From Hadesarchaea archaeon (GTDB lineage Archaea > Hadarchaeota > Hadarchaeia > Hadarchaeales > Hadarchaeaceae), in NCBI GenBank assembly GCA_029259175.1, contig JAPDJH010000002.1, positions 128,673-192,672 of the forward strand: 64,000 nucleotides of DNA, written 5' to 3'. The position numbers and the translations under genes are program-made. This document shows, piece after piece, positions 13,624 through 54,789 of this stretch. Positions within the stretch are counted from its first letter, which is position 1. Each line of letters starts with the position of its first letter. The notes below the pieces were generated by a model that had not been told where the DNA came from, did no database searches, and saw nothing but the letters and a program-made list of their open reading frames with translations.

Positions 13624-13655
<32 letters not shown>

Positions 13656-13660
13656 TTACG

Positions 13661-14362: not shown

Positions 14363-14531
14363 TGTCTCTCTTTAAGAGGGACTTTGTTACTATTTATGGA
14401 TTTCTCTGGCTCTCGGGAGTTTCCTGCGGGTCGACCTCATCGAGAACGGACCTTGTTACCTCCAACACGGAGGTAGTCCGTTCCCTATACGTCTTCCCCG
14501 CATACAGCCGGGTTTAACGACCCCCTTCGTC
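13670..14531 (-). mobile_element. 23S rRNA intron (archaeal BHB-spliced type) carrying a homing-endonuclease ORF. It is inserted between ...GGGGTAACTCTGACCCTC and TTAAGGTAGCG..., E. coli ~1927 region
   Basis: The exon junction sequences were identified at 14532-14549 and 13659-13669. The intervening ~860 nt contains the LAGLIDADG ORF plus a ~170-nt 5' leader. Confidence 0.65.
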
Positions 14532-16686
14532 GAGGGTCAGAGTTACCCCCGCCCCTTGGCGGCGCTTCGGCCGGCTGAACCCGGCTTTCACGTACCGCCG
14601 GTGGGCAGGATTCAGCTCCCGTACTCACCCTTTCGGGCTCGCGGGAACCTACGTTTTTATTAAACAGTCGGCCCCCCCTTGTCACTGCGACCTGCCTCTC
14701 GCGAGGCAGGCACCCCTTCTACCGAGGCTACGGGGCCAACTTGCCGAGTTCCCTAGCCCGGTGTATCCCGACACGCCTTAGGCTTCTCACCCAGGGGCAC
14801 CTGTGTCGGTTCTAGGTACGGTCACCTGGGATCCCATTTCCCAGCTCCCTTTTCACGGGCCCTAGGGCTCAGCCGAACCCGCCTTTCGGCAGGCCATTCC
14901 CGCCTTCGTCCGGTTCTCTCCGTTACGGAACTCCCCGGACTTGAGCGGTTAGATGGGGCGACGACCCCACTCGGCCTACCCCGAGGCGTCGGGAGCTAGG
15001 CCTTGCGTTGCCGCAGGTACCCAGGTGGCTCCGGAATATTAACCGGATTCCCTTTTGGGTGCCTCTGGTTGAGGGCACCCTTAGGACCGGCTAACCCTAG
15101 GCTGACGACCATTGCCTAGGAACCCGGGCCCCTTCGGCGGCCGGGATTCTCACCCGGCTCTGCTGTTACTACCGCCAGGATTTTCATTCCGACGCGGTCC
15201 ACCAGACCTCACGGCCTGGCTTCTCCCCACGCCGGACGCCCCCCTACCGGATCGGCCTACTATACTTCGGCCGCCCCGGGGTCTCGGTGGCCGGCTTAGC
15301 CCCGAGTATCTTCGGGGCCCCCTCCCTCGGCGGGTCCGCTGTTACGCGTTGTTTAAAGGATGGCTGCTTCTAAGCCTACCTCCCCGCTGTCTGAGGGAGA
15401 GGACGCCCTTTCCGGTAACACTTAGCCGGCACTTGGGGACCTTAACCCCGGTCTGGGTTTTTCCCCTCTCGGAGCGGGAGCTTACCCCCCGCATCCCGTC
15501 TCCGGCGGTCTACGGTGCTGGCGGCTTCGGAGTTCGACAGGCGAGGCGAGGGTTTCCCCCCGTCACTCGCCAATCGGTGCTCTACACCGCCAGCGACCTC
15601 GCGCCGGGCCTGACTGCGGCCAGCTTCGGGGGGAACCAGCTATCACCGGGCTTGATGGGTCTTTCGCCACTAGCCCGGGGTCATCCGACCGGATTGTACA
15701 CCAAGACCGGTTCGGCCCTCCACCGAGCGTACGCTCGGCTTCGGCCTACCCCGGACTAGATCGCCCGGTTTCGGGTCGCCATGCCGTGACTCCGGGCGCT
15801 CTTCACACCCGGCCCCTCGCCCTTTCGGGCTGCGGGCATCTCGCTTTCGCTCCGGCTCCGGGGATCCAACCCCCTTAGCCTCGCCACGGCAAGGCACTCC
15901 CTGGCCCGTGATTCCAGACGGACGGCACGACCCCGATTGGCCTCCCTCGTACTACCGCCTCGCGGCGGGTTCCTTCGGGAGGTCTCATCTCTTTCGAGCC
16001 GTGCCCAACTGTCCCCACCTGGTTTCAGGCTCTTTTCACCCCCCTTCCGGGGTGCTTTTCAGCTTTCCCTCGCGGTACTGTGTTCGCTATCGGTCTCGGG
16101 ACGTATTTAGGGTTGGAAGTTGATGCCTCCCAGCTTCGGACGGCATTTCTAAGCCGCCCTACTCAGGATACCTCTCCTCGTAGCCTGCCCAGTTACGCCT
16201 ACGGGGCTTTCACCCTCTACGGCGCGGCGTTCCAGCCGACTTCGGCTTCCCGGGCGAGGCATTGGGAGAGGTCCTACAACCCCACATCCGCACTCGGTTT
16301 CCCGAGCGCGTTCGGTTTGCCCTGTGCCCCTTTCACTCGCCGTTACTCAGGGCATCGCGATTGCTTTCTTTTCCTCCCGGTACTCCGATGTTTCGTTTCC
16401 CGGGGTTCCCGCTCGCTGCCGCGAGCGCCGGGGTATTGCCCCGGCAGGAGGTCCCATTCGGCGATCCCGGGATCAAAGGCTGCATGCGCCTACCCCGGGC
16501 GTTTCGCCGCTTGCCGCGACCTTCCTCGGCGCCCGAGCCGAGCCATCCCCCAGGTGGGTTCCGGTGTTCTCCCACGAGCCGGCACCGGGAACACTGCCTT
16601 TGCACGGCGGTCATTTCGCAAATGAGCGCGATCCGCCTTCAGTACACGAGCTTTCGGGCTCGCGCACCTCATCCCAAGTGGATATG

Positions 16687-19124: not shown

Positions 19125-19409
19125 ATGGTAATCGTAAAGTTTTTTGCGAGCTTTAGGGAGCTTACGGGTGAGCCCAAAACGACTGTGGAAGGTGTGCGAA
19201 CGGTTGGAGAGTTGCTGGATCACTTGTCCGCAAAATATGGGCAGAAGTTTGTTCAAAGTGTTTTTGAAGATCCCGAAAGCAGGAGGCTGAGGTCCACCGT
19301 GAACATCTTGGTAAACGGGCGATCGATAGTGCTCATGGAGGGGCTAGAGACCAAGCTCTCGGATTCGGACTCGGTGGCCATCTTCCCTCCCATCTCCGGT
19401 GGCGAGTGA
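19125..19409 (+). CDS. moaD: MoaD/ThiS-family sulfur-carrier protein (beta-grasp), C-terminus ...PPISGGE
   Basis: MVIVKFFASFRELTGE...ILVNGRSIV...SDSVAIFPPISGG has the MoaD topology. A GGGGGAATGAGGGA-ATG Shine-Dalgarno-like sequence is present. One extra residue (E) follows the GG. Confidence 0.7.
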   Translation: MVIVKFFASFRELTGEPKTTVEGVRTVGELLDHLSAKYGQKFVQSVFEDPESRRLRSTVNILVNGRSIVLMEGLETKLSDSDSVAIFPPISGGE

Positions 19410-19837
19410 CGATTATGGCAGTGGGTCGTGTTCACAAAAAGGGTGAAGTGGATCTCTGCAAGCTTATGGAGGAAATAAGGCAAAACTTGGGGACTGAGGT
19501 GGGTGCCCTTGGATGTTTTGTGGGGATAGTTCGGGGCACGGCCAAAAGCGGCGAGAGGGTTGATTTGCTCCACTACGAAGCTGCTGAAGAAGCGGCGACG
19601 GTGCTCACCGAAATTGCGAAGGAGGTACAGGAGCGCTTTGGATTGGAGGAGCTTCAAATCCACCACATCATCGATGATCTAAAACCAGGTGAGGATGCGA
19701 TTTATGTCGTCGCCTGTGGAAAGCATCGGAAGGAAGTCTTCCAGGCGCTAGTTGAGGCGATGGAGCTGGTGAAGTCAAAAGCTCCTGTGTGGAAGAAAGA
19801 AATCACTCCCTCGGGTGGATACTGGGTGGAAGGATAG
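19406..19837 (+). CDS. moaE: Molybdopterin synthase catalytic subunit MoaE
   Basis: MoaE family sequence was seen (GALGCFVGIVRG..., HYEAAEE...). It begins at a GTG overlapping the moaD stop, or at an ATG 9 nt later. Confidence 0.75.
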   Translation: MTIMAVGRVHKKGEVDLCKLMEEIRQNLGTEVGALGCFVGIVRGTAKSGERVDLLHYEAAEEAATVLTEIAKEVQERFGLEELQIHHIIDDLKPGEDAIYVVACGKHRKEVFQALVEAMELVKSKAPVWKKEITPSGGYWVEG

Positions 19838-28259: not shown

Positions 28260-29132
28260 GTGATGCACAGCGACAGAAATGCTATAGTTTTAACTTCCGG
28301 TGGTGCAGACAGCATTCCTCTGCTCTACCACGTAGCGAAGAAAATCCGGCCCAGACACGTTATCGCCATCCACGCCGACTACGGTCAGCGGATGGCCGAA
28401 CTCGAGCGTCTCGGCGTTGAAAAGACTGTCGAGCTTTTGTCCAGTAAGGGATATCCAGTCGAGCTGAAAACGGTGAACATCCGGTGGCTCGGAGAGCTTT
28501 CCACCTCCAAGCTTGTTCGGGACGAACCACTGCCCGAAACACCCGTCAATGCCCTTCAAGATCCTGAGGCCGCTTCCAAGCGCATCCTGTGGTGGTGGGA
28601 TGTGGTCCGAAATCTCCAACTGGTCACCATAGGTCTGGCATTCGCGGAGAGTATCGATTTATCGTCCTATCTGCGCACGGGAAGGCGCAACATCTACGAT
28701 GTGTACATTGGGATAAGGCGGGAAACCCCAGTACCCATGAAAGACAACACTCCTGAGTTTGTTGAGCTGATGAATCGTGTTGCAGATCAAGCGACCCATT
28801 TTGGCGGGTACCGAGTTCTAGCTCCGTTCATAACCAAAGACAAAGACGCGGTTATCAAATATGGTGAGGAGCTCGGAGTGCGATGGGAGTTCACGTTCTC
28901 TTGTTATACCAACGTGCGGGTGTGGGAGCGTCACCCTCGGGCCAATATCGAACTACCATTGCACTGCGGATGGTGCTCTAACTGCCGGAGACGAGCTAAA
29001 GCCTTCGTGGATGCTGGTGTGCCGGATCCCACTCTCTATCAGACGCCACCCCTACGGAACACAGAATATGCTCAAATCGGCAAGGCCTACATCCAGCGCG
29101 TTTTCCTCTCAGCCCAGAACCCAGATCAATAG
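28260..29132 (+). CDS. queC: 7-cyano-7-deazaguanine synthase QueC (long form)
   Basis: The PP-loop is LTSGGADS. The C-terminal Zn site is HCGWCSNCRRR. Confidence 0.75.
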   Translation: MMHSDRNAIVLTSGGADSIPLLYHVAKKIRPRHVIAIHADYGQRMAELERLGVEKTVELLSSKGYPVELKTVNIRWLGELSTSKLVRDEPLPETPVNALQDPEAASKRILWWWDVVRNLQLVTIGLAFAESIDLSSYLRTGRRNIYDVYIGIRRETPVPMKDNTPEFVELMNRVADQATHFGGYRVLAPFITKDKDAVIKYGEELGVRWEFTFSCYTNVRVWERHPRANIELPLHCGWCSNCRRRAKAFVDAGVPDPTLYQTPPLRNTEYAQIGKAYIQRVFLSAQNPDQ

Positions 29133-31061
29133 TAAAGACGCGATCGTGAAAACCACACTCGAGAGCACCGCGGACTTTGCCACCAGCGACCACAATTCGA
29201 CACTGTCTCCCGGCGCCTTGATCACGGCGATATATCGGGCAATCACGGCCGAAAGCAATATGCTGGTCAGTCCCATAACTAAGCGCAGCAGAGAGAGTTC
29301 TGCGGCCTCCATCGCACCAATCATGAGCGGAACCCCTGCAACACCGGCAGCAGACATCTGAGCAGCGAGCGTGTACTTCATTCCCGACATGAAATTCATC
29401 ACCCACACAGCCATTGCACACACCACCGGAATGAGAACTACTGACACGAGCCAGAGATTGCTCATCGCCTCATCAATACGTTCTCTAAACCTGCGTTCCA
29501 CACGCTGCAGCGTTCGGAGAAACTCCGCCGCCAGCATGCAAGCTCTTCCGGCTGCGGCTTCGTTGTCTCGTCTTATTCGAGAAATTATGTGGAGAAACCC
29601 TGCTATGACCGGATTGTAACGCTGGCGATGCACGATGGCCTCTTTCATGTTCATGCCGAATTCGTTCATACGCGAGCTTGCACCTTTCAGTTCGCTGGCT
29701 AGCGGCGACCCCTCCATGAGTTCTGCAGCCTCCACCATCGCGACCTGAGCCGGCTTTCCATCTAGCATTCTGGATCCAATCGTATTCAGAGCGTTTGCCC
29801 AATCCGAGACTTTTCTTCGTTCCTCATCGCGCGCCGCTCGTCTGTTCCTCGCGTACGCGTATCCATACACTCCGAGAGCTGCTCCGACTCCCCATACTAG
29901 CCACATGGTGGAAAAGCTCAGTGCGATTTGTCCCACCACTCCTTCTCTCACTCCGACCAAGTAGAGGACCCCAGGCCACCCCAGCGCCAGAAAACACACA
30001 AGTAGGATCACCCAGCTCGGAAACACGCGCGTGCCTATTCGGAGCTTTCCCGGCGGTGGTAAGCGCGGGTCGTCCTTCCAGCTTTCTATGATCTGGACCG
30101 TGGCAGGCCTGTTTCGCTCCATGTAAAGCGTGAACGCCGCAAACGAGACCACGAGAGCAGCAGCGATACCCACGAAAAACTTTAGGTCAACCAGCTGGAC
30201 ACCAATCATGCTGAAAACTGGAGAAAGACCCACAGCTCCGATAATAGCCAGCGATCCAAAGGTTAGAAAGGCTAGAGTGGGCATCACAAGCGAGCCCAGC
30301 TTTTTTGTGAGTTGTTCTTCCGATCCCTCGAGCACACGGTTGGGCGCTTTAGCGATATCCATGATTCGCATGCTTTCGTCCTTTGTACCCGAGGATCGGA
30401 GAATGTCGAAGATGGCTTGGCGCACATTGTCATCAATCTCGCCCCATTCATTCGCTACAGACACCAACAAATGACGCACGGTTTCAAAGCGTCTCCGCTC
30501 ATCGAGTTCAAAAAGTCCCCGTTGCAAATCCTCCGCCAGTTTTCCTTCGCTGGCATCGGCAGCGTAGACCGTGGCTCCTCGGAGATCTGGTTTGTGGTAG
30601 AGGAAAAAGCTCAACAACATAACGGTGTTTATAGCCAGACTCTGTGCCTGTGCCCTGCGCGTAGAAGCCCGCACGGAGGGGTAGAGCTGAAAGACCAGCC
30701 CACTTAGACCTCCGAGCACCGACCCGAGTATTGGGAGATACAGAGTCTCTAACAGATCCCCTGATACGAGCCAGAGTATGAGAAAGGGGAGTATGGGCAG
30801 AAAAAAACTGAACAGCATCCCTGCTGCCCACTCTTCGTCACTCAGCTGCAGTCCTGAGTCTTTCAGATCTTTTTTCGTTCGTTCGCTAACTCGGTACTCG
30901 CGTACCAAAGCTCCAATGATTTTCCTCGCAAATCTGCAAAACTTCTCATAAAGGGTGTGTCGGCGTTTTGCTTTTTTTCTCTCGAAAACCCTGCGAACAT
31001 CCTCTGGTATCGGAAACTCTGTTGGAAGGGACTCTATTGTTTTTTCAGCCAAGCGCGCCAC
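29109..31061 (-). CDS. Type II secretion system F-domain polytopic membrane protein (FlaJ/TadC-like pilus-assembly platform)
   Basis: The 650-aa product has three TM clusters separated by two cytoplasmic domains of ~150-170 aa, which is FlaJ/TadC topology. It overlaps the upstream secretion ATPase gene. Confidence 0.55.
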   Translation of the reverse strand: MARLAEKTIESLPTEFPIPEDVRRVFERKKAKRRHTLYEKFCRFARKIIGALVREYRVSERTKKDLKDSGLQLSDEEWAAGMLFSFFLPILPFLILWLVSGDLLETLYLPILGSVLGGLSGLVFQLYPSVRASTRRAQAQSLAINTVMLLSFFLYHKPDLRGATVYAADASEGKLAEDLQRGLFELDERRRFETVRHLLVSVANEWGEIDDNVRQAIFDILRSSGTKDESMRIMDIAKAPNRVLEGSEEQLTKKLGSLVMPTLAFLTFGSLAIIGAVGLSPVFSMIGVQLVDLKFFVGIAAALVVSFAAFTLYMERNRPATVQIIESWKDDPRLPPPGKLRIGTRVFPSWVILLVCFLALGWPGVLYLVGVREGVVGQIALSFSTMWLVWGVGAALGVYGYAYARNRRAARDEERRKVSDWANALNTIGSRMLDGKPAQVAMVEAAELMEGSPLASELKGASSRMNEFGMNMKEAIVHRQRYNPVIAGFLHIISRIRRDNEAAAGRACMLAAEFLRTLQRVERRFRERIDEAMSNLWLVSVVLIPVVCAMAVWVMNFMSGMKYTLAAQMSAAGVAGVPLMIGAMEAAELSLLRLVMGLTSILLSAVIARYIAVIKAPGDSVELWSLVAKSAVLSSVVFTIASLLLIWVLG

Positions 31062-33226
31062 TCTCCGAGTACTCGCTTGATATGGGGACCGTGCTGTTTG
31101 AGCAACGTGAAGTACACACCGTAGGCTTTGCTAACAAACGGAAGCTCAAGCACTTCTGGTTTCTGTTTGGAAAGCTGAAGCAGGTCGGACTTCACCCGGG
31201 CTTCCAAGAGTAGTTGTTTCAAGAAGTCGTCATCCTTGATGCCCAGTCTTCTGCATAGCTCAGGGATCAGGTGACTACCACCACGGCTGGGTGGAGCGAA
31301 TCGCACTTTTTTCGCCGTTTTGGAGAGGTCAAGTTTGGAAAGGTCGAAGGAGTTGAGCTGTTTTATTAGCCGTCTATCTCCGACGAGCAAGTTTTTCACC
31401 AATAGCAAATCCCGGCTCCGATCGTCTGCGAATAGTTCTACGTAACGCGGCTCTTCTCTCCAGTCCTTCCGCACTTCTGCGATCTCAACGATACGCCTGA
31501 TGGTACCACTGGGCGTCGAGAACCGGGCCGTGCTGACAATCAAGTCGATATAACGAAAAGCGGCTTCGTGCAGGCCCATAATGTGCACAACGAGATCGAA
31601 AACCTCTCTCTTACTGCGCGCGTGAAAACTCGCCACCACAGGCTGGGAGCCTTGACGAGCAGCAGCACCGAGCGCTGCACGAACGGCAGATGCCTCCCGG
31701 ACTTCCGTGATGAGCCAGTAGCTGGCTCCTCCGCGCAAAAACGCGTTGATTTGCCTTTCCAAGTGCTCTGGATCAGATATTCTAACATTTGCGATTTTGT
31801 AGCCGTGTTGTAGGAACTCCTCCACATGGAGTTCTTCGGTATCTTGGAAGGTCACTATGCGGTGTTGAGGTCCGATTTCCGGAATGTATGTCTCGACTTG
31901 TGATGTTTTTGCCGTTCCCATCTCCCCGATAACGAACACGCTAGATCCAAGTCTTAACACATTGCTGAGAAACGAACTAGCCAAGGGGGTGAGCGTGCGT
32001 CGGGAAAGGAAAAGCGGCTGGGTCCAAGGATTCGATCTCCGCTTGCGAACTGCCAGCTCAACGCTGCGTGCCCATATGGCGGGGTATCGGCTGAGAAACA
32101 GCCTCATGCCCAGCTCCGGAATCTCGGCGTCAAGCTGCGGCCTCACTTCGTCGAAGGAACTGCCGAGTCTTGAGGCCAGCACCTCTCCCAAACCAAGCAC
32201 CGAGGGCGTGTCCCAGCGTATTCCGGTCTCTAGCTTGCCCCATCGCTCGTGCTCTACGTATATGGGTTGGAGCTCTGGCGGAGCCGAGACATAGATATCA
32301 GTGATATAATCGTCGTAAGCGAAGGGATCGAGCACACGATAGGTGAGCCACCGAGCGATCATGTTGGCGAGTCTCTCTATTTGGTCATTTGAAATTTGGA
32401 GTTTTTTCTCCTTCAGCAGATGGAGGAGCACCAAATACCAGTCCTGCGCAAATGAGAACATCCGGTCTGAATATGCAAAACGTGCATGACCCGGCGCCTC
32501 CTCGAGCTTGTAATTGAACGCACGATATAACAGAGCCAGCTGATCCGAAGGAAGCTTAAACTCTGGTAGCTCAAGCTCGTAGAATCCTACGGGGTTGTCA
32601 GGGCGCTCGTAGATCTTCACTATCCCGCGGTTTTCCCGGAGCTTGTAGCTATCGATCAGCTTCGCGTTTTTCGGCGGCGTGCTCCACACGCCTTCAACGA
32701 AAAAGGGCTTTTGTCTTTCCTCAAAAACTCTCGGGTAGGAGTCTTCGTTCAATTCTTTCAAAAACTTGAGGGGTGCAAAGAGACCGTTCAACACCCGCAA
32801 CAGTTTCGCCAAGTGTTTTTCAACACACTCTCTACATTTTTTCGTGTTTTCACGCGGTTTTAATCGCAACATTTGTTTAAGTTCTCTGGCCCGATGAGGA
32901 TTTCTCTCGATTTCGGCGAATACCCGGAGTAGCTTTTCCTTTTGTTCGCGAATACACTCCCGGCACCGTTTGGAGGGTGCTGATGGATAGTACGATTCGT
33001 CCAGCACCGTTCGCTTCGCTCGGGCTATGGTGTGGGCCAAGACGGATAGTCTCTCGGTGCAGAACACGTGTGTGACGGGAGCACGTAGGACTACTTGGTG
33101 AACGGGTGGCTGGGTTTCTAGCTCCTTCAGAACAGCTGCTCGAACATTTGGGTTTTCAAGCGAGGCTTCTACTCCTTCAAACACAGCAACTTTGAGAGGC
33201 CCAGAGTCCTTTATCTCGACGCGCAT
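31034..33226 (-). CDS. Type II/IV secretion-system ATPase (FlaI/VirB11/TadA family), unusually long with N-terminal Cys-repeat extension
   Basis: There is a P-loop-like GEMGTAKTS and an Asp box RIVTFQDTEEL. Duplicated KRCRECIREQKEKLLRV / KKCRECVEKHLAKLLRV modules lie near the N-terminus. Confidence 0.7.
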   Translation of the reverse strand: MRVEIKDSGPLKVAVFEGVEASLENPNVRAAVLKELETQPPVHQVVLRAPVTHVFCTERLSVLAHTIARAKRTVLDESYYPSAPSKRCRECIREQKEKLLRVFAEIERNPHRARELKQMLRLKPRENTKKCRECVEKHLAKLLRVLNGLFAPLKFLKELNEDSYPRVFEERQKPFFVEGVWSTPPKNAKLIDSYKLRENRGIVKIYERPDNPVGFYELELPEFKLPSDQLALLYRAFNYKLEEAPGHARFAYSDRMFSFAQDWYLVLLHLLKEKKLQISNDQIERLANMIARWLTYRVLDPFAYDDYITDIYVSAPPELQPIYVEHERWGKLETGIRWDTPSVLGLGEVLASRLGSSFDEVRPQLDAEIPELGMRLFLSRYPAIWARSVELAVRKRRSNPWTQPLFLSRRTLTPLASSFLSNVLRLGSSVFVIGEMGTAKTSQVETYIPEIGPQHRIVTFQDTEELHVEEFLQHGYKIANVRISDPEHLERQINAFLRGGASYWLITEVREASAVRAALGAAARQGSQPVVASFHARSKREVFDLVVHIMGLHEAAFRYIDLIVSTARFSTPSGTIRRIVEIAEVRKDWREEPRYVELFADDRSRDLLLVKNLLVGDRRLIKQLNSFDLSKLDLSKTAKKVRFAPPSRGGSHLIPELCRRLGIKDDDFLKQLLLEARVKSDLLQLSKQKPEVLELPFVSKAYGVYFTLLKQHGPHIKRVLGEWRAWLKKQ

Positions 33227-33280
33227 CCGAACTCAATACCTTGTGTTAGTGCGTTGTTAAAAGCTTCTGCCAGTAAAACA

Positions 33281-33553
33281 TTATCCTTCAGCAGGGGGAG
33301 AAATGGAAATCTCGTCTTTGTGTTTGAGCCTGGTGTGGATATCGCGCATGCGCCGACCATTCAATAAAATAGTGTAGTCCTGGCGGAGTTCGCCAGTCGT
33401 GGGATCCAACACGTACTCTACGAGCCGGGGGTATCGGCGGCTGATCTTCATCATCAGGGTATCGAGTGTTTCGAACTCCGAAATCTTGACTCTTATTTCC
33501 TCGGTTCCTATCTCGGACTTGAAACTCGGGTGTACGCGAATGATCACTTCCAT
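33281..33553 (-). CDS. MoaD/ThiS-like beta-grasp small protein ending ...ISPPAEG (single C-terminal Gly)
   Basis: EVIIRVHPSFKSEIGTEE...ILLNGRRM...DEISISPP matches the MoaD fold pattern. Confidence 0.5.
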   Translation of the reverse strand: MEVIIRVHPSFKSEIGTEEIRVKISEFETLDTLMMKISRRYPRLVEYVLDPTTGELRQDYTILLNGRRMRDIHTRLKHKDEISISPPAEG

Positions 33554-33621
33554 TCAAATCCCTGCTTTCGGAGCCTCACCCATAAACTACAGAGTTGCGG
33601 TAATAAATCCTAATGGTTCGC

Positions 33622-34041
33622 TTACGCCACATAGGACGGCTGCTCCTTGTCTTTAGGTGGCTGTTTTTGACCGATGTGAGGCAGGGGGATGGGTGGCGGA
33701 ATATTCAGAGAGCGGGAGAGAACCGTAGCCTCCACTAGCGAGGTCGTAGTGATAGCTTGAAGCAAATTCGGCGGCGGTGGGCGCTTTGCATCATAATCGG
33801 ACTTGAGTTGCTGGAGTTCTTCCGGTTTTCCGCTCACAAAGGCCTCCCCCTTGATGTTTATTTGAGCGACTGATGGGGAATACGTGATCGATACGACAAA
33901 CGGAACTATTAGGCCTGCTTCTTTTTCCTCCACACGCACCACATTCACGTTCGTCTGGATGTGGACTGGTCCTTGAGGGGCCTGTTGAATGAGGCGTTCG
34001 GCCGAGAGGTAGTTGAGTTGGATTTTTATCTGCATCAACAC
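33622..34041 (-). CDS. Hypothetical soluble protein (139 aa) with Pro-rich C-terminus
   Basis: This is an ORF only. It is co-oriented with, and immediately upstream of, the beta-grasp and ATPase genes. Confidence 0.4.
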   Translation of the reverse strand: MLMQIKIQLNYLSAERLIQQAPQGPVHIQTNVNVVRVEEKEAGLIVPFVVSITYSPSVAQINIKGEAFVSGKPEELQQLKSDYDAKRPPPPNLLQAITTTSLVEATVLSRSLNIPPPIPLPHIGQKQPPKDKEQPSYVA

Positions 34042-34074: not shown

Positions 34075-35388
34075 TTAGAACTCTATTATGCTTTTGACCG
34101 CCAGCTCGCGTTGGAGCGGTTTCGCCAGATGTCTTCGTGCCCTTGGCGGCACCTCAAATTTGCCCACCCGGATCCCACGTGAAAGCTCCTCAATTGTAGC
34201 CGCGGTAGGCGGGGCCCGCTCCTTACATTTCTTGCACACATATCCTTTTCCGCGCCCTTCTGATTTCATTCTCTTACCACATTTTGGACACTTGGGATTT
34301 CGTTTAACCGTTTTCTTCGCCAATTCCAAGATTTCTATCTTTTCCAAGTTCAAGGTGAGAGGTAAGCTAGGTTTTTGTTTTACTCCTCCATGGACGATCA
34401 CTCGGTCCCCAGGGATCAACTGTTTTACCACCGTTCTGAAAATCCTAGTCGGCTCATAGGCTGCGCAGTGAATCGTGCCAGTCGAGTCGCGGATTTCTAC
34501 GATCACGTGGCCCCCAGCGATGATTCGCGGCTTTGAAGCGATTTCTCCCTCGATGGAGTAGGAGCGCAGCGGACTTACCTCAGCGATTTTTGCGGAAACC
34601 AAATGCTCGTCGGTTCCTTGGTTGGTCTTGAAAATTTGAACTCTTTCTATAGGTTCTCCCGTTTTCACCAACTGATGCGCCTTTTTCAAAACCGCTGGGG
34701 ATTCGCCTCTGATCCCATACAGCACGGGACAAGGAGTGTGGGGTGTTATCCGGATCTCGCCCGTCCATGGATCGAGGTTGTCAAAGGTAAGAGGGGACGT
34801 GAGTTTGTCCATCCGCTTGACCGAATCCGGATCCACTTTTCTTGGCTTCCCCCTATTTTCAGGGGTTCTATAAGCGACCAGCTCGTATGTGAAGTCGTTA
34901 GTTAGGGGGTGCCCGATGGCCGCTAGAGCTCCGATCACACCATTTCCCGCGCGAAACTTGTGGGTTTCAATCCCCAGCTTGTTCGCCATGCTTTCGGCCT
35001 CCTTCAAGTCGACGATATCCTTCACCACTCGATACGCAAACGTTACTAGTTCTTCCGGAGGAGTTTTCTTGGACATAAAAGCCACACCCGGGTTGGTTCG
35101 GTCATCCTTTTCTGCCAGCTCCTCAACGGTTTTCAGCACTATTTCTTTCACCTCCGACACCTGATCCGGTGGACAACCTACGAGAAATGCCACCGCACAG
35201 TTTCCACGAGTTTTCTGGGGCCAACACGGGTTCAATCGAATTAGTTTTGGAAAGTCGAGCAGAGCGCATCCTAGCCTTTGGAGACGTTGAATGGCGACGG
35301 CCCCCACGTAAGTGGTGCACATGCCACGTGGCGAGTCTGTATCATCGATTCCCGCATACAGAGGAACGGTGTTCACAGATACCACCAA
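34075..35388 (-). CDS. tiaS: tRNA(Ile2) 2-agmatinylcytidine synthetase TiaS
   Basis: GIDDTDSPRGMCTTY is the N-terminal kinase-like motif. The C-terminal zinc ribbon is CPKCGKRM...CKKC. Confidence 0.75.
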   Translation of the reverse strand: MVVSVNTVPLYAGIDDTDSPRGMCTTYVGAVAIQRLQRLGCALLDFPKLIRLNPCWPQKTRGNCAVAFLVGCPPDQVSEVKEIVLKTVEELAEKDDRTNPGVAFMSKKTPPEELVTFAYRVVKDIVDLKEAESMANKLGIETHKFRAGNGVIGALAAIGHPLTNDFTYELVAYRTPENRGKPRKVDPDSVKRMDKLTSPLTFDNLDPWTGEIRITPHTPCPVLYGIRGESPAVLKKAHQLVKTGEPIERVQIFKTNQGTDEHLVSAKIAEVSPLRSYSIEGEIASKPRIIAGGHVIVEIRDSTGTIHCAAYEPTRIFRTVVKQLIPGDRVIVHGGVKQKPSLPLTLNLEKIEILELAKKTVKRNPKCPKCGKRMKSEGRGKGYVCKKCKERAPPTAATIEELSRGIRVGKFEVPPRARRHLAKPLQRELAVKSIIEF

Positions 35389-52052: not shown

Positions 52053-52757
52053 TCACTCTTCAGCGATCGCTCTTCCACCATATGCGTCGATCACCCGCAC
52101 CACAACGGATCCGTCCTGCTGCCTGATTTCAAAGCGCAACCACTCGCACGCGAAGTTCTCGTTTAGCTCGCGCTCGAACCCCTCCAAGTCGGCAACGCTT
52201 TGAGCCAAGTCGTACACCCGGTAGGCGATGTGGTGCAGCCTCCCGTAGCGCGGAACCACGCCCGCGTCCAGCTGGATGCCAAACGCTCGCACACCGCTCG
52301 CGTGCTCGAACTCCGCCGGCAGATAGCCGTAGGCCCTGAGCCCCCCATCGGGGAGCCACTCGAAGCGAAGCGTGTTCTCGGAGGTGAGCGGCACGCTGAT
52401 GTCGAAACCCGTGTACTCCCACCCCATCGCGATGCGCTCGTTGATGTACTGGCGGGCACGCACTTCCACCTGGGCCTTGTCCTCTCCGCGGCGCCCGCTC
52501 TCATACATGGCGGCTTGGATCACGGTGCGGAGGGCCTCGTTGAGTTCCGTCTGGACGGCCGATGCCATGGCTTTGGTCGTGTCGGTCACCATCGCCTGGT
52601 GCAGAATGGAGAGTTCGGACTCGTACCCGCGAGCGAAGGTCTGGACCGCCAAGTAGGAGGACAAGATAACGAAGACCGTGAAAACAGCAAGAGACGCAGC
52701 AGCACCGCGTTGCTCAGAGAGGGTAGAGTGAGACACGCGCTTCCACCTGCGCCACAT
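52053..52757 (-). CDS. Pilin-like protein E: N-terminal ...SEQRG|AAASLAVFTVFVILSSYLAV (candidate class III signal peptide) plus ~200-aa extracellular domain
   Basis: An [DE][EQ]RG motif immediately precedes a hydrophobic helix. This gene is last in a five-gene co-oriented GC-rich cluster. Confidence 0.45.
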   Translation of the reverse strand: MWRRWKRVSHSTLSEQRGAAASLAVFTVFVILSSYLAVQTFARGYESELSILHQAMVTDTTKAMASAVQTELNEALRTVIQAAMYESGRRGEDKAQVEVRARQYINERIAMGWEYTGFDISVPLTSENTLRFEWLPDGGLRAYGYLPAEFEHASGVRAFGIQLDAGVVPRYGRLHHIAYRVYDLAQSVADLEGFERELNENFACEWLRFEIRQQDGSVVVRVIDAYGGRAIAEE

Positions 52758-53202
52758 GGTTTTCGGCCTCCGCTATCACCAAGGTCACGGTTCCACTAAA
52801 CACGTATTCGTCTCCCGAGGGTGCCGAGTTCTCCGGAACCGTCTGGACCCACAAGCGGTTCTCAAACCGGAGCTCGACACGCGCCCCGTGCTCAGGCGGG
52901 CAAAGGAAGTCCAGAGCCCTGGAAAGTTCTTCGCGTATAACGGATCCCGGGACTGCCGGCTCCCCGATGTCCAGGAGGTTCTCGGCGATGGCACGGAAGA
53001 AAGACACCGAGTAGTTCTCCGGCTGGGCCAGCTCCAGCGCGTGGTAGAGATAGGACGTCTGCAGCTGCAGCTGGCGAGAAGCGACTGCGGGGAGCGCGGT
53101 GAAGCCGAAGCTGTGCAGATAGGCTCCGGCGAGCACCAAGAGCACCAGCATGAGAGTAACCGCGATCGCGTCTGATACCCCGCGCTGGTCTACGCTCGCC
53201 AC
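52714..53202 (-). CDS. Pilin-like protein D: GTG start giving (M)ASVDQRG|VSDAIAVTLMLVLLVLAGAYL
   Basis: It carries the same DQRG-hydrophobic pattern. The track ORF (to 53319) has a spurious N-terminal extension. Confidence 0.45.
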   Translation of the reverse strand: MASVDQRGVSDAIAVTLMLVLLVLAGAYLHSFGFTALPAVASRQLQLQTSYLYHALELAQPENYSVSFFRAIAENLLDIGEPAVPGSVIREELSRALDFLCPPEHGARVELRFENRLWVQTVPENSAPSGDEYVFSGTVTLVIAEAENHVAQVEARVSLYPL

Positions 53203-53612
53203 ACCTGCACCTCCAGCACTCCGGGAACCAGTTTCGTGTTGTCGAAGACCGCAACGGGGAGCGAGAGCGCTGCTACAGGCGTATCGGGCGGAACAGAATC
53301 CCCGTGGCTCGCCGACCACCCATCCAGCGTGCTTATCTGGACACAGAAACTGTAGTTCTCCTGACCCACGCCAACGAGTTCCGGGAGCTGGTCGAGGCGG
53401 GAGGGATCCACGGCGTACTCAACCGTGTTTCCGCCAGCGGTGTACGCCAGCTCGTTGAGAGCCAAATGGTTGGCAATGCTGGAACACGCGTCGGCGAGTT
53501 TAGCGGTGGAGAGCCCCACCCGATAGCTGGAATAAGCGGACACGAGCAGCGCTAAGAAGACCACCACGAGCAGAGCGACCACAATTGAACGGAAGATGCG
53601 CACTAGGTCCAC
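53190..53612 (-). CDS. Small membrane-anchored protein C (N-terminal TM RIFRSIVVALLVVVFLALLVSA, no RG motif)
   Basis: There is a candidate GTG start at 53612 overlapping the upstream gene's stop by 10 nt. The long N-terminal extension in the track (Ser/Arg-rich) is probably not real. Confidence 0.4.
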   Translation of the reverse strand: MDLVRIFRSIVVALLVVVFLALLVSAYSSYRVGLSTAKLADACSSIANHLALNELAYTAGGNTVEYAVDPSRLDQLPELVGVGQENYSFCVQISTLDGWSASHGDSVPPDTPVAALSLPVAVFDNTKLVPGVLEVQVWRA

Positions 53613-53956
53613 GTGACCACCAGCCGGTTGGCTTGGAGTTCCACCTTCAGCTCGTGCTGACCAGCGGGTACGGGCGCGAGATTGTCGGCGAAGGGCAGAG
53701 GCACTTCGGCTTGTTTGTGATCGATCAGAATGAGGTTGTCGACGAAGTGCATGGTGTAGCCGGACGGGACGGTGATGTTTTCGGTGCGGGAGCCCCCGAA
53801 ATCCGCCACTTGCTGGCAGAGCTCCGACACCCGAAGTAGTGCTTCGGTAGCTGCCTGATCGGCCATCAGAGACTGAAAAACCAAGACTCCGAAGGAGCCC
53901 ACAGACACCGCAAAGAGCGAGAGAACCACCAGAGCCAAGGTTTTGAGGGCTGGCAT
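53603..53956 (-). CDS. Small membrane-anchored protein B (MPALKTLALVVLSLFAVSVGSFGVLVF...)
   Basis: There is one TM helix plus a ~90-aa domain. The start lies 5 nt after gene A's stop. Confidence 0.45.
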   Translation of the reverse strand: MPALKTLALVVLSLFAVSVGSFGVLVFQSLMADQAATEALLRVSELCQQVADFGGSRTENITVPSGYTMHFVDNLILIDHKQAEVPLPFADNLAPVPAGQHELKVELQANRLVVTWT

Positions 53957-53961
53957 GGAAA

Positions 53962-54417
53962 CTACTCAAGGGTAAGCTGTAGTTTTGCGAATGACTCGGT
54001 TCCGTCTGCTCCAGTTGCCTTAATGGTGATTGTGGTTGGACCGGAGAGTGCGGTGTTGTCCACACGTATGATAAGAGTGGATCCAAATGGAGGATCGCCG
54101 CTGGCCGGAGAGAAGCCAACGCTTACTCCAGAGGGTGTGCCGCTTGCAGAGAGAGTCACTGTTTGGTCGTAATCGCCAATTTCCTCCACGCTGACTTCGA
54201 GGTTCACCTCATTCTCACCCGAGTCCGGGATGCCCACGACCAAGCTATAGGAGGTCTGACCCTCGATCGATACGCTGAAGGAGAGAAGCTGCCGGGCCCC
54301 CTTGGAAGCCCACCCGTACACGCCGTAAGCGATTCCCAGTCCGATAACGAGCAGAACGATTCCGGCGAAGAGCTTCATGGCTAGGGGCTCGACTCCGCGC
54401 TCGTCCACGAAGAACAC
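53962..54417 (-). CDS. Pilin-like protein A: (GTG start) MFFVDERG|VEPLAMKLFAGIVLLVIGLGIAY plus C-terminal Ig-like/CARDB-like beta domain
   Basis: A DERG motif is present. The C-terminus reads TVTLSASGTPSGVSVGFSPASG...TTITIKATGADGTESFAKLQLTL, an Ig-like pattern. A TTTTAAA TATA lies ~25 nt upstream on the minus strand. Confidence 0.5.
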   Translation of the reverse strand: MFFVDERGVEPLAMKLFAGIVLLVIGLGIAYGVYGWASKGARQLLSFSVSIEGQTSYSLVVGIPDSGENEVNLEVSVEEIGDYDQTVTLSASGTPSGVSVGFSPASGDPPFGSTLIIRVDNTALSGPTTITIKATGADGTESFAKLQLTLE

Positions 54418-54492: not shown

Positions 54493-54789
54493 CTAGAGCC
54501 GAATCCCGAGCTTTCTGAGATCTGAGATGTGGCGGCGCATTTCGAATCGAAGGATTTCCTTCACCCTTTCTGGGCCTAAGCGCCATGCCTCCTCGAGTAG
54601 CTTGACCGCGGCGGTGTTGCTGGGGGTGTGCAGATCGCTCCGAATCCAATTCACGACGGCTTGAACGCTGACACCGCAGAGGCCAGCAATTTCAGAAGGC
54701 CTGTATTTTTCCAGCAGGAGTTGCAACAGAGACATCCGGGCCCAGCGGCTGAGGCGCTCCGCTGCCGGGAACCATTTGGCGGGCTTCAC
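54493..54789 (-). CDS. Small helix-turn-helix DNA-binding protein (98 aa), candidate regulator
   Basis: The HTH reads LLLEKYRPSEIAGLCGVSVQAVVNWIRS, with a GTG start. A TTTAAAAG TATA sits ~30 nt upstream on the minus strand, with IR copy 2 ~16 bp beyond it. Confidence 0.5.
   Translation of the reverse strand: MKPAKWFPAAERLSRWARMSLLQLLLEKYRPSEIAGLCGVSVQAVVNWIRSDLHTPSNTAAVKLLEEAWRLGPERVKEILRFEMRRHISDLRKLGIRL

What the first reader, a model, noticed from the sequence alone, without database searches (positions are those of the whole stretch)
29109..34041. Oversized T4P/T2SS-family ATPase with duplicated CxxC modules and a Walker A variant (GEMGTAKT), paired with a FlaJ/TadC-like platform and preceded by a GG-less MoaD-like beta-grasp gene
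The ATPase is 730 aa, whereas FlaI/VirB11-type enzymes are usually ~500-560 aa. The extra N-terminal region carries two near-identical K(R/K)CREC(I/V)(R/E)...(K/H)L(L/A)KLLRV modules, which give four Cys and a possible zinc site.

The P-loop has Ala at the position of the normally invariant second Gly (GxxGxAKT). The Asp box (RIVTFQDTEEL) is intact.

The ATPase gene overlaps a 650-aa membrane protein with three TM clusters and two cytoplasmic domains, which is FlaJ/TadC topology.

Immediately upstream and co-oriented are a 139-aa unknown protein and a 90-aa MoaD/ThiS-fold protein ending ...PPAEG. The beta-grasp protein lacks the C-terminal diglycine needed for sulfur-carrier or SAMP chemistry.

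No pilin genes are adjacent. The arrangement of a non-conjugatable beta-grasp, an unknown protein, an atypical ATPase and a platform is not a locus layout I recognise.
Basis: partly seen in the sequence, partly recalled or inferred. Interest (0 to 1): 0.6.

Follow-up and report, generated by a model that had tools for sequence, protein, structure and literature searches.

The report
Divergent archaeal pilus-type motor, split locus
This is the ATPase-plus-membrane-platform core of a very divergent type IV pilus-like machine found across the archaeal phylum Hadarchaeota; its odd ATP-binding motif is real and conserved, but the neighbouring ubiquitin-fold gene belongs to a separate gene block.

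Summary
The described ORFs and motifs are all present. The window is a Hadarchaeota genome.

**ATPase.** The 730-aa protein is a distant FlaI/GspE2-type secretion ATPase. Its Walker A, GxxGxAKT, is not a sequencing error: 116 of 120 homologues carry it. The Asp box is also non-canonical, QDTEE instead of EDxxE, in 120 of 120. The Walker A Lys, Walker B Glu and His-box His are conserved.

**Membrane protein.** The 650-aa protein has no direct Pfam hit. Three lines make it a diverged double-T2SSF (TadC/FlaJ-like) platform:
- Its profile reaches T2SSF-bearing relatives.
- Its predicted cytoplasmic domains match the EpsF/PilC fold.
- It has 9 TM segments in three clusters.

**Pairing and missing pilins.** ATPase and platform are adjacent in every informative locus among 49 Hadarchaeota loci. 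About 20 relatives have five small pilin-like genes directly downstream. In this window that cluster sits 19 kb away, at 52053-54417.

**Upstream genes.** The GG-less beta-grasp and the 139-aa gene belong to a separate conserved TiaS-linked block. That block abuts the ATPase only in this sublineage, so the four-gene layout is a juxtaposition.

**Wider context.** A non-Hadarchaeota relative has the same oversized architecture with canonical motifs.

**Verdict.** This is a new variant of a known kind, of moderate interest.

The parts
31034..33226 (-). 730-aa secretion ATPase of a Hadarchaeota-wide divergent FlaI/GspE2-like family. Regions: N-terminal small alpha/beta domain (aa 1-55); helical hairpin with a Cys4 site (C88, C91, C130, C133); FlaI-like N-domain plus RecA-like core (about aa 170-610); C-terminal helical domain (about 610-730). 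Motifs: Walker A GEMGTAKT (434-441), Asp box FQDTEEL (460-466), Walker B ITEVRE (E508), His box SFHA (H535).
   Evidence: NCBIfam FlaI 6.8e-25, below the equivalog cut-off; PDB FlaI 1.2e-16; AF2 pLDDT 83; Foldseek 2oap 3e-21, TMt 0.74; FlaI 1e-20.
29109..31061 (-). 650-aa polytopic platform protein, a diverged TadC/FlaJ-like double T2SSF. It has 9 TM segments and two cytoplasmic helical-bundle domains (125-258, 398-528). Its start overlaps the ATPase stop by 28 nt.
   Evidence: no direct family hit; adjacent to the ATPase in all informative loci; AF2 pLDDT 81.7; EpsF/OutF/PilC-N/SpoIIIAB domain matches, prob 1.0, TMt 0.65-0.78; 24/44 remote homologues carry Pfam T2SSF.
33256..33265 (-). TATA-box-like element AGCTTTTAAC. 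It ends 29 nt upstream of the ATPase ATG, inside the 54-nt gap after the beta-grasp gene. It is the candidate promoter of the ATPase-platform unit.
   Evidence: Relatives with unrelated upstream genes have GTAGCTTTATTTTA at the same distance (L002, L006, L009, L045). Inference only; no transcript data.
53962..54417 (-). c3: 151-aa pilin-like protein. Class III-type leader ...DERG|VEPLAMKLFAGIVLLVIG, followed by a beta-rich (Ig-like) domain. Directly follows the platform gene in about 20 relatives.
   Evidence: 61% identity to L007 c3, 2.7e-55; about 15 of 19 family members have the [KR]G leader, by reading the listed N-termini.
53603..53956 (-). c2: 117-aa protein with an N-terminal TM anchor (MPALKTLALVVLSLFAV...). 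It is the second gene of the conserved small-protein cluster.
   Evidence: and 85 (the c2 HMM also hits the second gene after the platform in remote DPANN-like loci, E 5e-11 to 1e-8).
53190..53612 (-). c7: 140-aa protein with an N-terminal TM anchor. Weak match to Pfam DUF7285.
   Evidence: (DUF7285 1.1e-5, 26.4 bits against a cut-off of 27).
52714..53202 (-). c8: about 162-aa pilin-like protein with leader ...DQRG|VSDAIAVTLMLVLLVLAG. Probable GTG start at 53202, overlapping the c7 stop.
   Evidence: Pilin_N E=0.022, below cut-off; 9 of 13 members have the [KR]G|V/I leader by reading the listed N-termini; the script's '10' includes two mis-anchored hits.
52053..52757 (-). c4: 234-aa protein with leader ...EQRG|AAASLAVFTVFVILSS, then a helical domain. 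It is the last gene of the cluster.
   Evidence: (60% identity to L003 c4, 1.7e-89).
33281..33553 (-). 90-aa MoaD/ThiS-fold beta-grasp protein ending PPAEG, with no GG. It belongs to the separate TiaS-linked block, not to the pilus-type machine.
   Evidence: (TIGR01687 51.8 bits against a cut-off of 49.5).
33622..34041 (-). 139-aa conserved Hadarchaeota protein of unknown function (p139). It lies immediately downstream of TiaS in all six genomes examined and is part of the TiaS-linked block.
   Evidence: no family or PDB match; 58-79% identity to TiaS-adjacent genes in L051-L056.
34075..35388 (-). tRNA(Ile2) agmatidine synthetase TiaS, the anchor of the conserved block TiaS-p139-(p105)-beta-grasp.
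   Evidence: (NF040849 1.6e-150).

Best explanation
**What it is.** The 730-aa and 650-aa genes are the motor ATPase and the inner-membrane platform of a highly divergent archaeal type IV filament (T4P/Tad-like) machine. The machine is conserved across Hadarchaeota.

**Mechanism, by analogy with FlaI/FlaJ, TadA/TadBC and PilB/PilC (inferred, not shown).**
- A hexamer of the ATPase docks on the two cytoplasmic helical-bundle domains of the 9-TM platform.
- Nucleotide-driven domain movements are passed to the platform.
- The platform extracts processed pilin-like subunits from the membrane and adds them to a surface filament or a short pseudopilus.
- The cognate subunits are the five small N-terminally anchored proteins c3, c2, c7, c8 and c4. 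Three of them have class III-type [KR]G leaders.

**Gene order.** The ancestral order is ATPase-platform-c3-c2-c7-c8-c4-glnA. In this lineage the five-gene cluster moved 19 kb away (52053-54417). The motor pair came to lie next to an unrelated conserved block, TiaS-p139-beta-grasp, and appears to keep its own promoter.

**Active site.** GxxGxAKT plus QDTEE is a fixed, lineage-specific remodelling of a still-functional active site, not decay. The oversized architecture (Cys-rich N-terminal extension plus C-terminal helical domain) predates Hadarchaeota. The Cys4 sites are most likely dispensable structural zinc sites.
For: **ATPase identity.**
- NCBIfam FlaI 6.8e-25, TadA 6.5e-14, BasE 1.2e-10.
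- PDB sequence search: FlaI 1.2e-16, AfGspE2 1.1e-11, CpaF 2.2e-9.
- Foldseek on an AF2 model (pLDDT 83.2): 2oap 3e-21 with TMt 0.74, FlaI 1e-20, CpaF 1e-14.

**Conservation of the active site.**
- GxxGxAKT in 116/120 homologues.
- G434, G437, A439, K440, T441, Q461, D462, T463, E465, E508, R510 and H535 are invariant in 27 sequences at 44-69% identity.
- QDT in 120/120.
- MCM helicases work with GDPGTAKSQ or GDPSTSKSQ (PMC2952866 Table 1).

**Platform.**
- The family profile finds 625 cluster representatives.
- 24 of 44 sampled carry Pfam T2SSF. Examples are P0211 at 33 bits (aa 106-236) and P0214 with its second domain (aa 394-519).
- The AF2 model (pLDDT 81.7) matches EpsF, OutF, PilC-N and SpoIIIAB cytoplasmic domains, prob 1.0, TMt 0.65-0.78.
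- 9-TM topology with K/R-rich cytoplasmic domains.

**Pairing.** ATPase and platform are adjacent or overlapping in all 49 Hadarchaeota loci that hold enough sequence.

**Pilin-like cluster.**
- c3-c2-c7-c8-c4 lies directly after the platform in about 20 loci, then glnA.
- The same five genes are at 52053-54417 in the window.
- [KR]G leaders occur in c3 and c8 (about 15/19 and 9/13 by reading the N-termini), and in the window's c4.

**Independence of the upstream genes.**, plus the TATA-like element conserved in position.

**Wider clade.**
- The L065 ATPase (684 aa) matches the family HMM end to end (2.7e-66). It has T2SSE at 76.7 bits and canonical GPRSSGKTS, IEDTPE and GEVRG.
- Remote loci share the platform-plus-small-proteins layout, and c2 homologues sit in the same position.

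**Precedent for split loci.** Separation of ATPase/TadC modules from pilin loci is common in archaea (PMC4858521).
Against: - No filament, transcript or enzymatic data exist.
- The window ATPase does not reach Pfam T2SSE at E<0.1, and the platform has no direct family hit. Membership therefore rests on NCBIfam, PDB, fold and transitive evidence.
- Two residues of the nucleotide pocket are non-canonical. The AF2 model has low confidence exactly at 441-445 and 499-511.
- The small proteins have only sub-threshold matches to pilin families: Pilin_N at 0.022 and DUF7285 just under its cut-off.
- c2 and c7 lack a recognisable leader.
- No prepilin peptidase was seen in the window (only a crude screen).
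- No obvious short, abundant major pilin was identified.
- A study of cultured Hadarchaeota reported no PilA-type pilin (PMC11297162).
Confidence: 0.7

Rival explanations
1. One reading: the GG-less beta-grasp, the 139-aa protein, the atypical ATPase and the platform form one novel four-component system. For example, the beta-grasp protein would be a substrate, adaptor or regulator of the motor.
For: The genes are co-oriented with short gaps of 33, 68 and 54 nt. The same order is kept in the closest relatives L050, L051 and L052, at about 69% ATPase identity.
Against: - None of 49 species-representative loci has either small gene near the ATPase, even at tblastn E<1.
- In L053, L054 and L056 the beta-grasp ends a TiaS-p139-p105-beta-grasp block and is followed by Lhr, ArsR/thioredoxins or POR.
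- The ATPase-platform pair of the same assemblies lies on other contigs: L032 with L053, and L001 with L056.
- A TATA-like element sits between the beta-grasp gene and the ATPase.
Confidence: 0.06
2. The ATPase is a catalytically dead or nucleotide-binding-only pseudo-enzyme. It would serve as a scaffold or regulator, with the real motor supplied by a canonical PilB-like paralogue.
For: - Gly-to-Ala at the P-loop position preceding Lys and Glu-to-Gln in the Asp box both touch the nucleotide/Mg pocket.
- AF2 confidence is low at 441-445 and 499-511.
- At least one Hadarchaeota genome also has a canonical PilB3-like ATPase and a T2SSF platform (L025).
Against: - Lys, Thr, the Walker B Glu, the His-box His and several Arg are invariant over 44-69% sequence divergence.
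- The substitutions themselves are fixed rather than drifting, which indicates selection on a working site.
- MCM proteins hydrolyse ATP with Ala or Ser before the Lys.
- The protein keeps its own dedicated platform in every genome.
- The canonical paralogue was seen in only one of the fetched loci.
Confidence: 0.12
3. The machine is of the same kind but does not build an adhesive pilus. It would be a pseudopilus-type export or assembly device (a bindosome/T2SS-like role), or a DNA-uptake or other surface-organising device.
For: - No short, multi-copy major pilin gene was found.
- The five partners are single-copy and 117-234 aa, and two lack leaders.
- NCBIfam also gives a BasE (bindosome ATPase) match at 1.2e-10.
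- The system is near-universal in the phylum, which suggests a housekeeping role.
Against: Sequence alone cannot separate these outputs. FlaI and GspE2 score better than BasE. c3 has an Ig-like surface domain of the kind typical of archaeal pilins and adhesins.
Confidence: 0.2

Closest known systems
Archaellum motor pair FlaI/FlaJ (Sulfolobus acidocaldarius FlaI, PDB 4ii7/4ihq)
   Same: Best sequence match among solved structures (1.2e-16, aa 295-609) and best NCBIfam match. The N-domain plus RecA-like core fold is shared (Foldseek 1e-20). The platform has FlaJ-like 9-TM topology with two cytoplasmic domains, and the ATPase and platform genes are adjacent.
   Different: - Only about 20% identity.
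- 87.8 bits against the 550-bit equivalog cut-off.
- About 170 extra N-terminal residues with Cys4 site(s) and about 120 extra C-terminal helical residues.
- Walker A is AKT rather than GKT, and the Asp box is QDTEE rather than EDTPE.
- No archaellin or FlaG/F/H/X genes are present. It is not an archaellum.
Archaeoglobus fulgidus secretion ATPase GspE2 (PDB 2oap) and euryarchaeal PilB/PilC-type T4P modules (Makarova, Koonin and Albers 2016, PMC4858521)
   Same: Top structural match (3e-21, TMt 0.74). The ATPase/TadC two-gene module plus several class III signal-peptide proteins is the same general plan. Pilin genes are often encoded in trans from the ATPase/TadC module, as in this window.
   Different: - The family falls below Pfam T2SSE and T2SSF detection in this genome.
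- It is distinct from the canonical PilB3-like pair that one Hadarchaeota genome also carries (23% identity).
- The pilin-like partners belong to no described pilin family.
- Hadarchaeota were not in the 2016 census, so the clade assignment was not tested.
Bacterial Tad pilus motor CpaF/TadA with TadB/TadC (PDB 8rkd, 9e24)
   Same: Significant sequence and fold similarity of the ATPase core (2.2e-9; Foldseek 1e-14). The platform has T2SSF-type cytoplasmic domains.
   Different: It is more distant than the archaeal enzymes. Here there is a single fused double-T2SSF platform instead of two proteins, and none of the other Tad genes.
Uncharacterised DPANN-like/metagenomic relatives (L057-L069; P0210, annotated Candidatus Micrarchaeota)
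   Same: - Platform homologues at E 1e-67 to 1e-30.
- The layout is the same: platform followed by about six small N-terminally anchored proteins.
- The first small protein has a KRG|VEALPL leader like c3.
- The second is homologous to c2.
- The L065 ATPase has the same oversized N- and C-terminal architecture.
   Different: Their ATPase (L065) keeps canonical GKT, EDT and GEVRG motifs. In most of those loci the ATPase is not adjacent. None is characterised or named.
MoaD/ThiS/SAMP beta-grasp sulfur carriers (for the 90-aa gene)
   Same: TIGR01687 (archaeal MoaD family) is matched above its cut-off. Length and fold class are the same.
   Different: - There is no C-terminal Gly-Gly, here or in 23 of the 24 homologues read.
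- It is not next to MoaE or an E1-like enzyme. The window has a separate MoaD (ending SGGE) and MoaE pair at 19125-19837.
- It is linked to TiaS and p139 instead.

Membership tests
T2SS/T4P/T4SS secretion ATPase superfamily (PF00437 T2SSE; FlaI/GspE/TadA/VirB11) | Significant sequence and fold similarity of the N2 domain plus RecA-like C-terminal domain to known members | tested here: met
   - NCBIfam FlaI 6.8e-25.
- PDB FlaI 1.2e-16 and GspE2 1.1e-11.
- Foldseek 2oap 3e-21, TMt 0.74.
- The window protein itself gave no Pfam T2SSE hit at E<0.1.
- Many family members and the L065 relative (76.7 bits) do hit T2SSE.
T2SS/T4P/T4SS secretion ATPase superfamily | Canonical Walker A GxxGxGK[ST] | tested here: not met
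   The motif is GEMGTAKT, with Ala at the Gly preceding Lys. This is conserved in 116/120 homologues. Lys and Thr are retained and invariant.
T2SS/T4P/T4SS secretion ATPase superfamily | Asp box E-D-x-x-E | tested here: not met
   The motif is FQDTEEL, with the first Glu replaced by Gln in 120/120. FlaI has IEDTPEL at the aligned position.
T2SS/T4P/T4SS secretion ATPase superfamily | Walker B catalytic Glu and His-box His | tested here: met
   ITEVRE aligns with FlaI VGEIRD, and SFHA with TFHA. E508 and H535 are invariant.
T2SS/T4P/T4SS secretion ATPase superfamily | ATP hydrolysis by a hexameric ring | not testable with these tools
   This needs purified protein.
Archaellum FlaI (NCBIfam NF058587 equivalog) | Score above the equivalog cut-off, and an archaellum gene context (archaellins, FlaF/G/H/X/CDE) | tested here: not met
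   The score is 87.8 bits against a cut-off of 550. No archaellum genes appear in the window or in 49 related loci.
T2SSF / TadC / FlaJ / PilC platform proteins (PF00482) | Direct match to the T2SSF domain model | tested here: not met
   There was no Pfam or NCBIfam hit at E<0.1 for the window protein, and none was precomputed for 82 homologues.
T2SSF / TadC / FlaJ / PilC platform proteins (PF00482) | Homology to T2SSF-bearing proteins by profile search (transitive) | tested here: met
   The family profile hits 625 representatives. Of 44 sampled, 24 carry T2SSF, with a best E of 6.6e-10. The domains map to both cytoplasmic regions.
T2SSF / TadC / FlaJ / PilC platform proteins (PF00482) | Cytoplasmic helical-bundle fold of GspF/PilC, and a polytopic topology with two such domains | tested here: met
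   Foldseek domain matches to EpsF 2vmb/3c1q, OutF 5nbg and PilC 2whn have prob 1.0, TMt 0.70-0.78 and rmsd 2.4-3.5 A. Whole-chain E-values are weak (0.8-2) because the targets are single domains.
T2SSF / TadC / FlaJ / PilC platform proteins (PF00482) | Encoded next to its cognate secretion ATPase | tested here: met
   The genes overlap by 28 nt in the window, and are adjacent in all informative loci among 49.
Archaeal type IV pilins (class III signal peptide proteins; PF07790 Pilin_N) | Short charged leader ending in [KR]G, followed by a hydrophobic N-terminal helix | tested here: met
   In the window, c3 has DERG|VEPLAM..., c8 has DQRG|VSDAIAV... and c4 has EQRG|AAASLAV.... The leader is conserved in most c3 and c8 relatives. 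c2 and c7 have an anchor but no leader.
Archaeal type IV pilins (class III signal peptide proteins; PF07790 Pilin_N) | Match to a curated pilin family model | tested here: inconclusive
   c8 matches Pilin_N at E=0.022, 16.1 bits against a cut-off of 25.2. c7 matches DUF7285 at 26.4 bits against 27. Only scattered hits were found among 99 relatives.
Archaeal type IV pilins (class III signal peptide proteins; PF07790 Pilin_N) | Processing by a prepilin peptidase (PibD/FlaK/EppA) encoded in the genome | not tested
   Only the 64-kb window is available. No obvious candidate appeared in a crude ORF and TM screen.
MoaD/ThiS/SAMP sulfur-carrier beta-grasp proteins | Beta-grasp family match | tested here: met
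   TIGR01687 51.8 bits (cut-off 49.5) and Pfam ThiS 22.8 bits (cut-off 22.5).
MoaD/ThiS/SAMP sulfur-carrier beta-grasp proteins | C-terminal Gly-Gly for adenylation or thiocarboxylation | tested here: not met
   The protein ends PPAEG. Of the 24 homologues whose sequences were read, 23 also lack a terminal GG, and only P0373 ends in GG.
MoaD/ThiS/SAMP sulfur-carrier beta-grasp proteins | Linkage to MoaE, ThiF/MoeB-like E1 or ThiG | tested here: not met
   The neighbours are TiaS, p139 and (in other genomes) p105. MoaE at 19406-19837 pairs with a different MoaD.

The most novel reading that the evidence does not exclude
Hadarchaeota have fixed a remodelled nucleotide pocket (GxxGxAKT plus QDTEE) in the motor of an otherwise conserved, still undescribed clade of archaeal type IV filament machines, a clade shared with DPANN-like archaea. 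The remodelling would reflect a real change in how the motor works, such as much slower or tightly gated hydrolysis, or altered nucleotide or metal use suited to energy-starved subsurface life. The machine would build a surface structure from five pilin-like proteins that current annotation cannot recognise. Separately, the TiaS-p139-beta-grasp block could be a new non-conjugating beta-grasp partner system for tRNA modification.
Probability: 0.15. Interest if true: 0.6.

Novelty: new variant of a known kind. Interest (0 to 1): 0.4.

Why it matters
- It gives Hadarchaeota, a widespread and mostly uncultured subsurface phylum, a phylum-wide surface-filament or secretion machine that standard annotation largely misses. 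The platform and all five partner proteins are annotated 'hypothetical'. One study of cultured members reported no type IV pilin.
- It provides a natural, strongly conserved example of a secretion-superfamily ATPase with Ala in place of the P-loop Gly and Gln in place of the Asp-box Glu. A close-architecture relative with canonical motifs is available for comparison, which makes the roles of these residues directly testable.
- It is a cautionary case. An apparently novel four-gene 'locus' dissolves into two independent conserved modules once relatives are compared.

Tried and rejected
- **Sequencing error in Walker A.** Rejected; the variant is family-wide.
- **Tandem duplication of the CxxC module.** No DNA repeat was found, and the two modules are dissimilar in relatives.
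- **Direct Pfam/NCBIfam assignment of the platform.** No hit. hhalign of the platform profile against a single canonical short TadC (L025) was not significant. I relied instead on the profile search plus Pfam on the hits, and on fold.
- **Family assignment of the five small proteins and the 335-aa c9.** Pfam on 99 relatives gave only scattered sub-threshold hits. No papers mention DUF7285 or DUF7266.
- **p139.** No Pfam, NCBIfam or PDB sequence match.
- **Neighbourhood of the remote platform homologues.** The first alignment was too diverse for a metagenome scan. A closer subset worked.
- **Literature on Hadarchaeota pili or type IV systems.** Nothing describes this system.
- **Phylogenetic placement among the Makarova et al. 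clades.** Not done, because no reference sequence set was available.

Full report
**1. Observation**

The four co-oriented minus-strand ORFs exist exactly as described:
- a 139-aa ORF at 34041..33622
- a 90-aa ORF at 33553..33281, ending PPAEG
- a 730-aa ORF at 33226..31034
- a 650-aa ORF at 31061..29109, overlapping the previous gene by 28 nt

TiaS lies upstream (35388..34075). A QueC-like gene converges on the 3' end, followed by glnA. An archaeal rRNA operon is in the window, and every homologue is annotated Hadarchaeota, Hadesarchaea or MSBL1. The window is therefore a Hadarchaeota genome.

**2. The ATPase**

Sequence and structure evidence:
- It gives no Pfam T2SSE hit at E<0.1.
- It matches NCBIfam FlaI (6.8e-25, 87.8 bits against a 550-bit cut-off), TadA, BasE, TrbB and VirB11.
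- Among solved structures it matches FlaI (1.2e-16), A. fulgidus GspE2 and CpaF.
- An AlphaFold2 model (pLDDT 83.2) matches 2oap (3e-21, TMt 0.74) and FlaI (1e-20).

The homologous core spans roughly aa 170-610. There are two additions. The first is an N-terminal region of about 170 aa, made of a small alpha/beta domain and a helical hairpin. The second is a C-terminal helical domain of about 120 aa.

The Walker A variant GxxGxAKT is present in 116 of 120 homologues, so it is a family trait and not an error.

The Asp box is also altered. Where FlaI has IEDTPEL, this protein has FQDTEEL, and the Gln is present in 120/120.

K440, T441, the Walker B Glu (E508), R510, the His-box His (H535) and several Arg are invariant across 27 sequences at 44-69% identity. 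That pattern indicates selection on a working site. MCM helicases are active with GDPGTAKSQ or GDPSTSKSQ (PMC2952866 Table 1), so Ala before the Lys need not kill activity.

They are kept in 78 of 104 full-length homologues. Most relatives have a further N-terminal CxxC-x(6-16)-CxxC (79 of 104) that this protein has lost. There is no DNA repeat. Either site can be absent, so they look like dispensable structural zinc sites. This is an inference.

**3. The membrane protein**

It has no direct family hit, and its 82 homologues are all 'hypothetical' and from Hadarchaeota.

A profile of 27 members searched against 1.84 billion representatives finds 625 proteins. Of these, 164 have E<=1e-30, and many are full-length at 600-750 aa. 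Of 44 sampled, 24 carry Pfam T2SSF. P0211 scores 33 bits at aa 106-236, and P0214 has the second domain at aa 394-519.

The AF2 model (pLDDT 81.7) has cytoplasmic helical bundles that match EpsF, OutF, PilC-N and SpoIIIAB, with prob 1.0, TMt 0.65-0.78 and rmsd 2.4-3.5 A.

Hydropathy gives 9 TM segments in three clusters and two K/R-rich cytoplasmic domains.

It is a diverged double-T2SSF platform of the TadC/FlaJ type.

**4. Neighbourhood**

A scan of one genome per GTDB species returned 49 loci, all Hadarchaeota.
- The ATPase and platform are adjacent or overlapping wherever the contig allows.
- Neither the beta-grasp gene, nor p139, nor TiaS is near them in any of the 49 loci, even at tblastn E<1.
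- Instead, about 20 loci have five small genes right after the platform, then glnA: c3 (~145 aa), c2 (~120), c7 (~134), c8 (~170) and c4 (~228). Other loci have a c4-c9-c2 set nearby.

In the window these five genes lie at 54417..52053 on the same strand, 19 kb from the motor pair. glnA still follows the platform. The cluster was therefore moved out of its ancestral position.

c3, c8 and c4 have class III-type leaders: DERG|VEPLAM, DQRG|VSDAIAV and EQRG|AAASLAV. c2 and c7 have plain N-terminal anchors. Curated pilin models match only below threshold.

**5. The upstream genes**

The beta-grasp protein matches the archaeal MoaD family above its cut-off. It has 29 homologues, all apparently from Hadarchaeota. 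Of the 24 whose sequences were read, 23 lack a terminal GG.

In three genomes it closes a block, apgM(-)|TiaS-p139-p105-beta-grasp. Lhr, ArsR/thioredoxins or POR follow that block. Two of those assemblies carry their ATPase-platform pair on another contig: L032 with L053, and L001 with L056.

Only the closest relatives (ATPase about 69% identical) share the window's order. p139 is 58-79% identical to the TiaS-adjacent genes elsewhere, and p105 is missing here.

A TATA-like AGCTTTTAAC ends 29 nt before the ATPase ATG. Relatives with unrelated upstream genes have GTAGCTTTATTTTA at the same place. The four-gene layout is therefore two independent modules brought together in one sublineage.

**6. 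Wider relatives**

Metagenome loci encoding remote platform homologues show the following:
- The platform is followed by about six small anchored proteins.
- The first has a KRG|VEALPL leader.
- The second is homologous to c2 (E 5e-11 to 1e-8).

One named relative is annotated Micrarchaeota.

In L065 a 684-aa ATPase overlaps the platform gene. It matches the Hadarchaeota family HMM end to end (2.7e-66), including the Cys-rich N-terminus and the C-terminal domain. It carries canonical GPRSSGKTS, IEDTPE and GEVRG, and Pfam T2SSE at 76.7 bits. The oversized architecture is thus older than the phylum. The AKT/QDT pocket is the Hadarchaeota-specific derived state.

One Hadarchaeota genome also carries a canonical PilB3-like ATPase with a T2SSF platform (L025). 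It is only 23% identical to the window ATPase.

**7. Mechanism**

Shown:
- homology and fold of both proteins
- their strict pairing
- the linked pilin-like cluster
- conservation of the catalytic residues

Inferred by analogy with FlaI/FlaJ, PilB/PilC and TadA/TadBC:
- A hexameric ATPase docks on the platform's cytoplasmic domains.
- It drives insertion of processed pilin-like subunits into a surface filament or pseudopilus.

Pilus, pseudopilus or another output cannot be separated from sequence alone.

**8. Comparison, novelty and score**

The general plan matches the archaeal T4P systems catalogued by Makarova et al. (PMC4858521), including pilins encoded in trans. I found no description of this Hadarchaeota family. 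A paper on cultured Hadarchaeota reports no PilA.

I classify it as a new variant of a known kind. It is a divergent, phylum-wide type IV filament system with a fixed non-canonical nucleotide pocket.

Interest is 0.4. The features are real and testable, but the striking 'novel four-gene locus' reading does not hold.

Noticed in passing
window 34075-35388, 33622-34041, 33281-33553; L053:3766-6300, L054:3765-6306, L056:3747-6273: TiaS is followed by p139, a ~105-aa membrane protein (p105, lost in the window lineage) and a GG-less MoaD-like beta-grasp protein. This block is conserved in all six Hadarchaeota genomes examined. The beta-grasp family has variable tails after PP, and only 1 of the 24 sequences read ends in GG. 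Function is unknown; a link to tRNA modification is speculation.
   Followed up: partly
window 13661-14362 (-), inside the 23S rRNA match 12678-16574: A 233-aa LAGLIDADG homing-endonuclease ORF (Pfam LAGLIDADG_3, 3.2e-16) lies within the LSU rRNA gene. The rRNA match spans 3897 nt for a 2987-nt model, which implies an rRNA intron.
   Followed up: partly
window 19125-19409 and 19406-19837 (+): A regular MoaD (ThiS family, 5.8e-19) ending ...PPISGGE, with one residue after the GG, overlaps a MoaE gene. The genome therefore has a conventional molybdopterin synthase pair besides the GG-less paralogue.
   Followed up: partly
window 28260-29132 (+): A QueC-like PP-loop protein (290 aa; Pfam QueC 2.8e-29, but only 73.9 bits against the 150-bit TIGR00364 cut-off) converges on the platform gene and overlaps its 3' end by 24 nt. 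It occupies the position where relatives have the pilin-like cluster. The same arrangement is seen in L050 and L052.
   Followed up: no
window 54493-54789 (-): A 98-aa HTH_23 protein (3.4e-6) lies immediately upstream of the relocated pilin-like cluster. It may be a local regulator acquired with the new position.
   Followed up: no
L025:14744-17624: One Hadarchaeota genome carries, 5 kb from the divergent pair, a canonical PilB3-like ATPase (T2SSE 2.1e-34, GGTASGKTS, IVTIEDTREL) and a 392-aa T2SSF platform. In the same locus the divergent ATPase appears split into two ORFs (349 and 477 aa), which may be a frameshift or an assembly error.
   Followed up: partly
L023, L026, L028, L031, L046 (upstream, divergent); L016, L040, L042 (downstream): A second small-protein set lies near the ATPase-platform pair in several genomes: c4, c9 (~335 aa, N-terminal anchor) and a c2 paralogue. 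Sometimes it occurs in addition to the c3-c2-c7-c8 set. No c9 homologue was found in the window.
   Followed up: no
L057:4091-4720, L061:4068-4696, L064:4133-4710, L066:4134-4711: In the DPANN-like relatives the platform gene is preceded by a conserved 93-aa double-zinc-ribbon-like protein (MVEVTVRVCDVCKERIAIGTCPTCNRD...) and a ~95-aa single-TM protein rather than by the ATPase.
   Followed up: no
window 31034-33226, protein residues 441-445 and 499-511: The AlphaFold2 model is confident overall (pLDDT 83) but drops below 50 just after the P-loop and across the Walker B strand. These are the parts of the pocket next to the two non-canonical residues.
   Followed up: no
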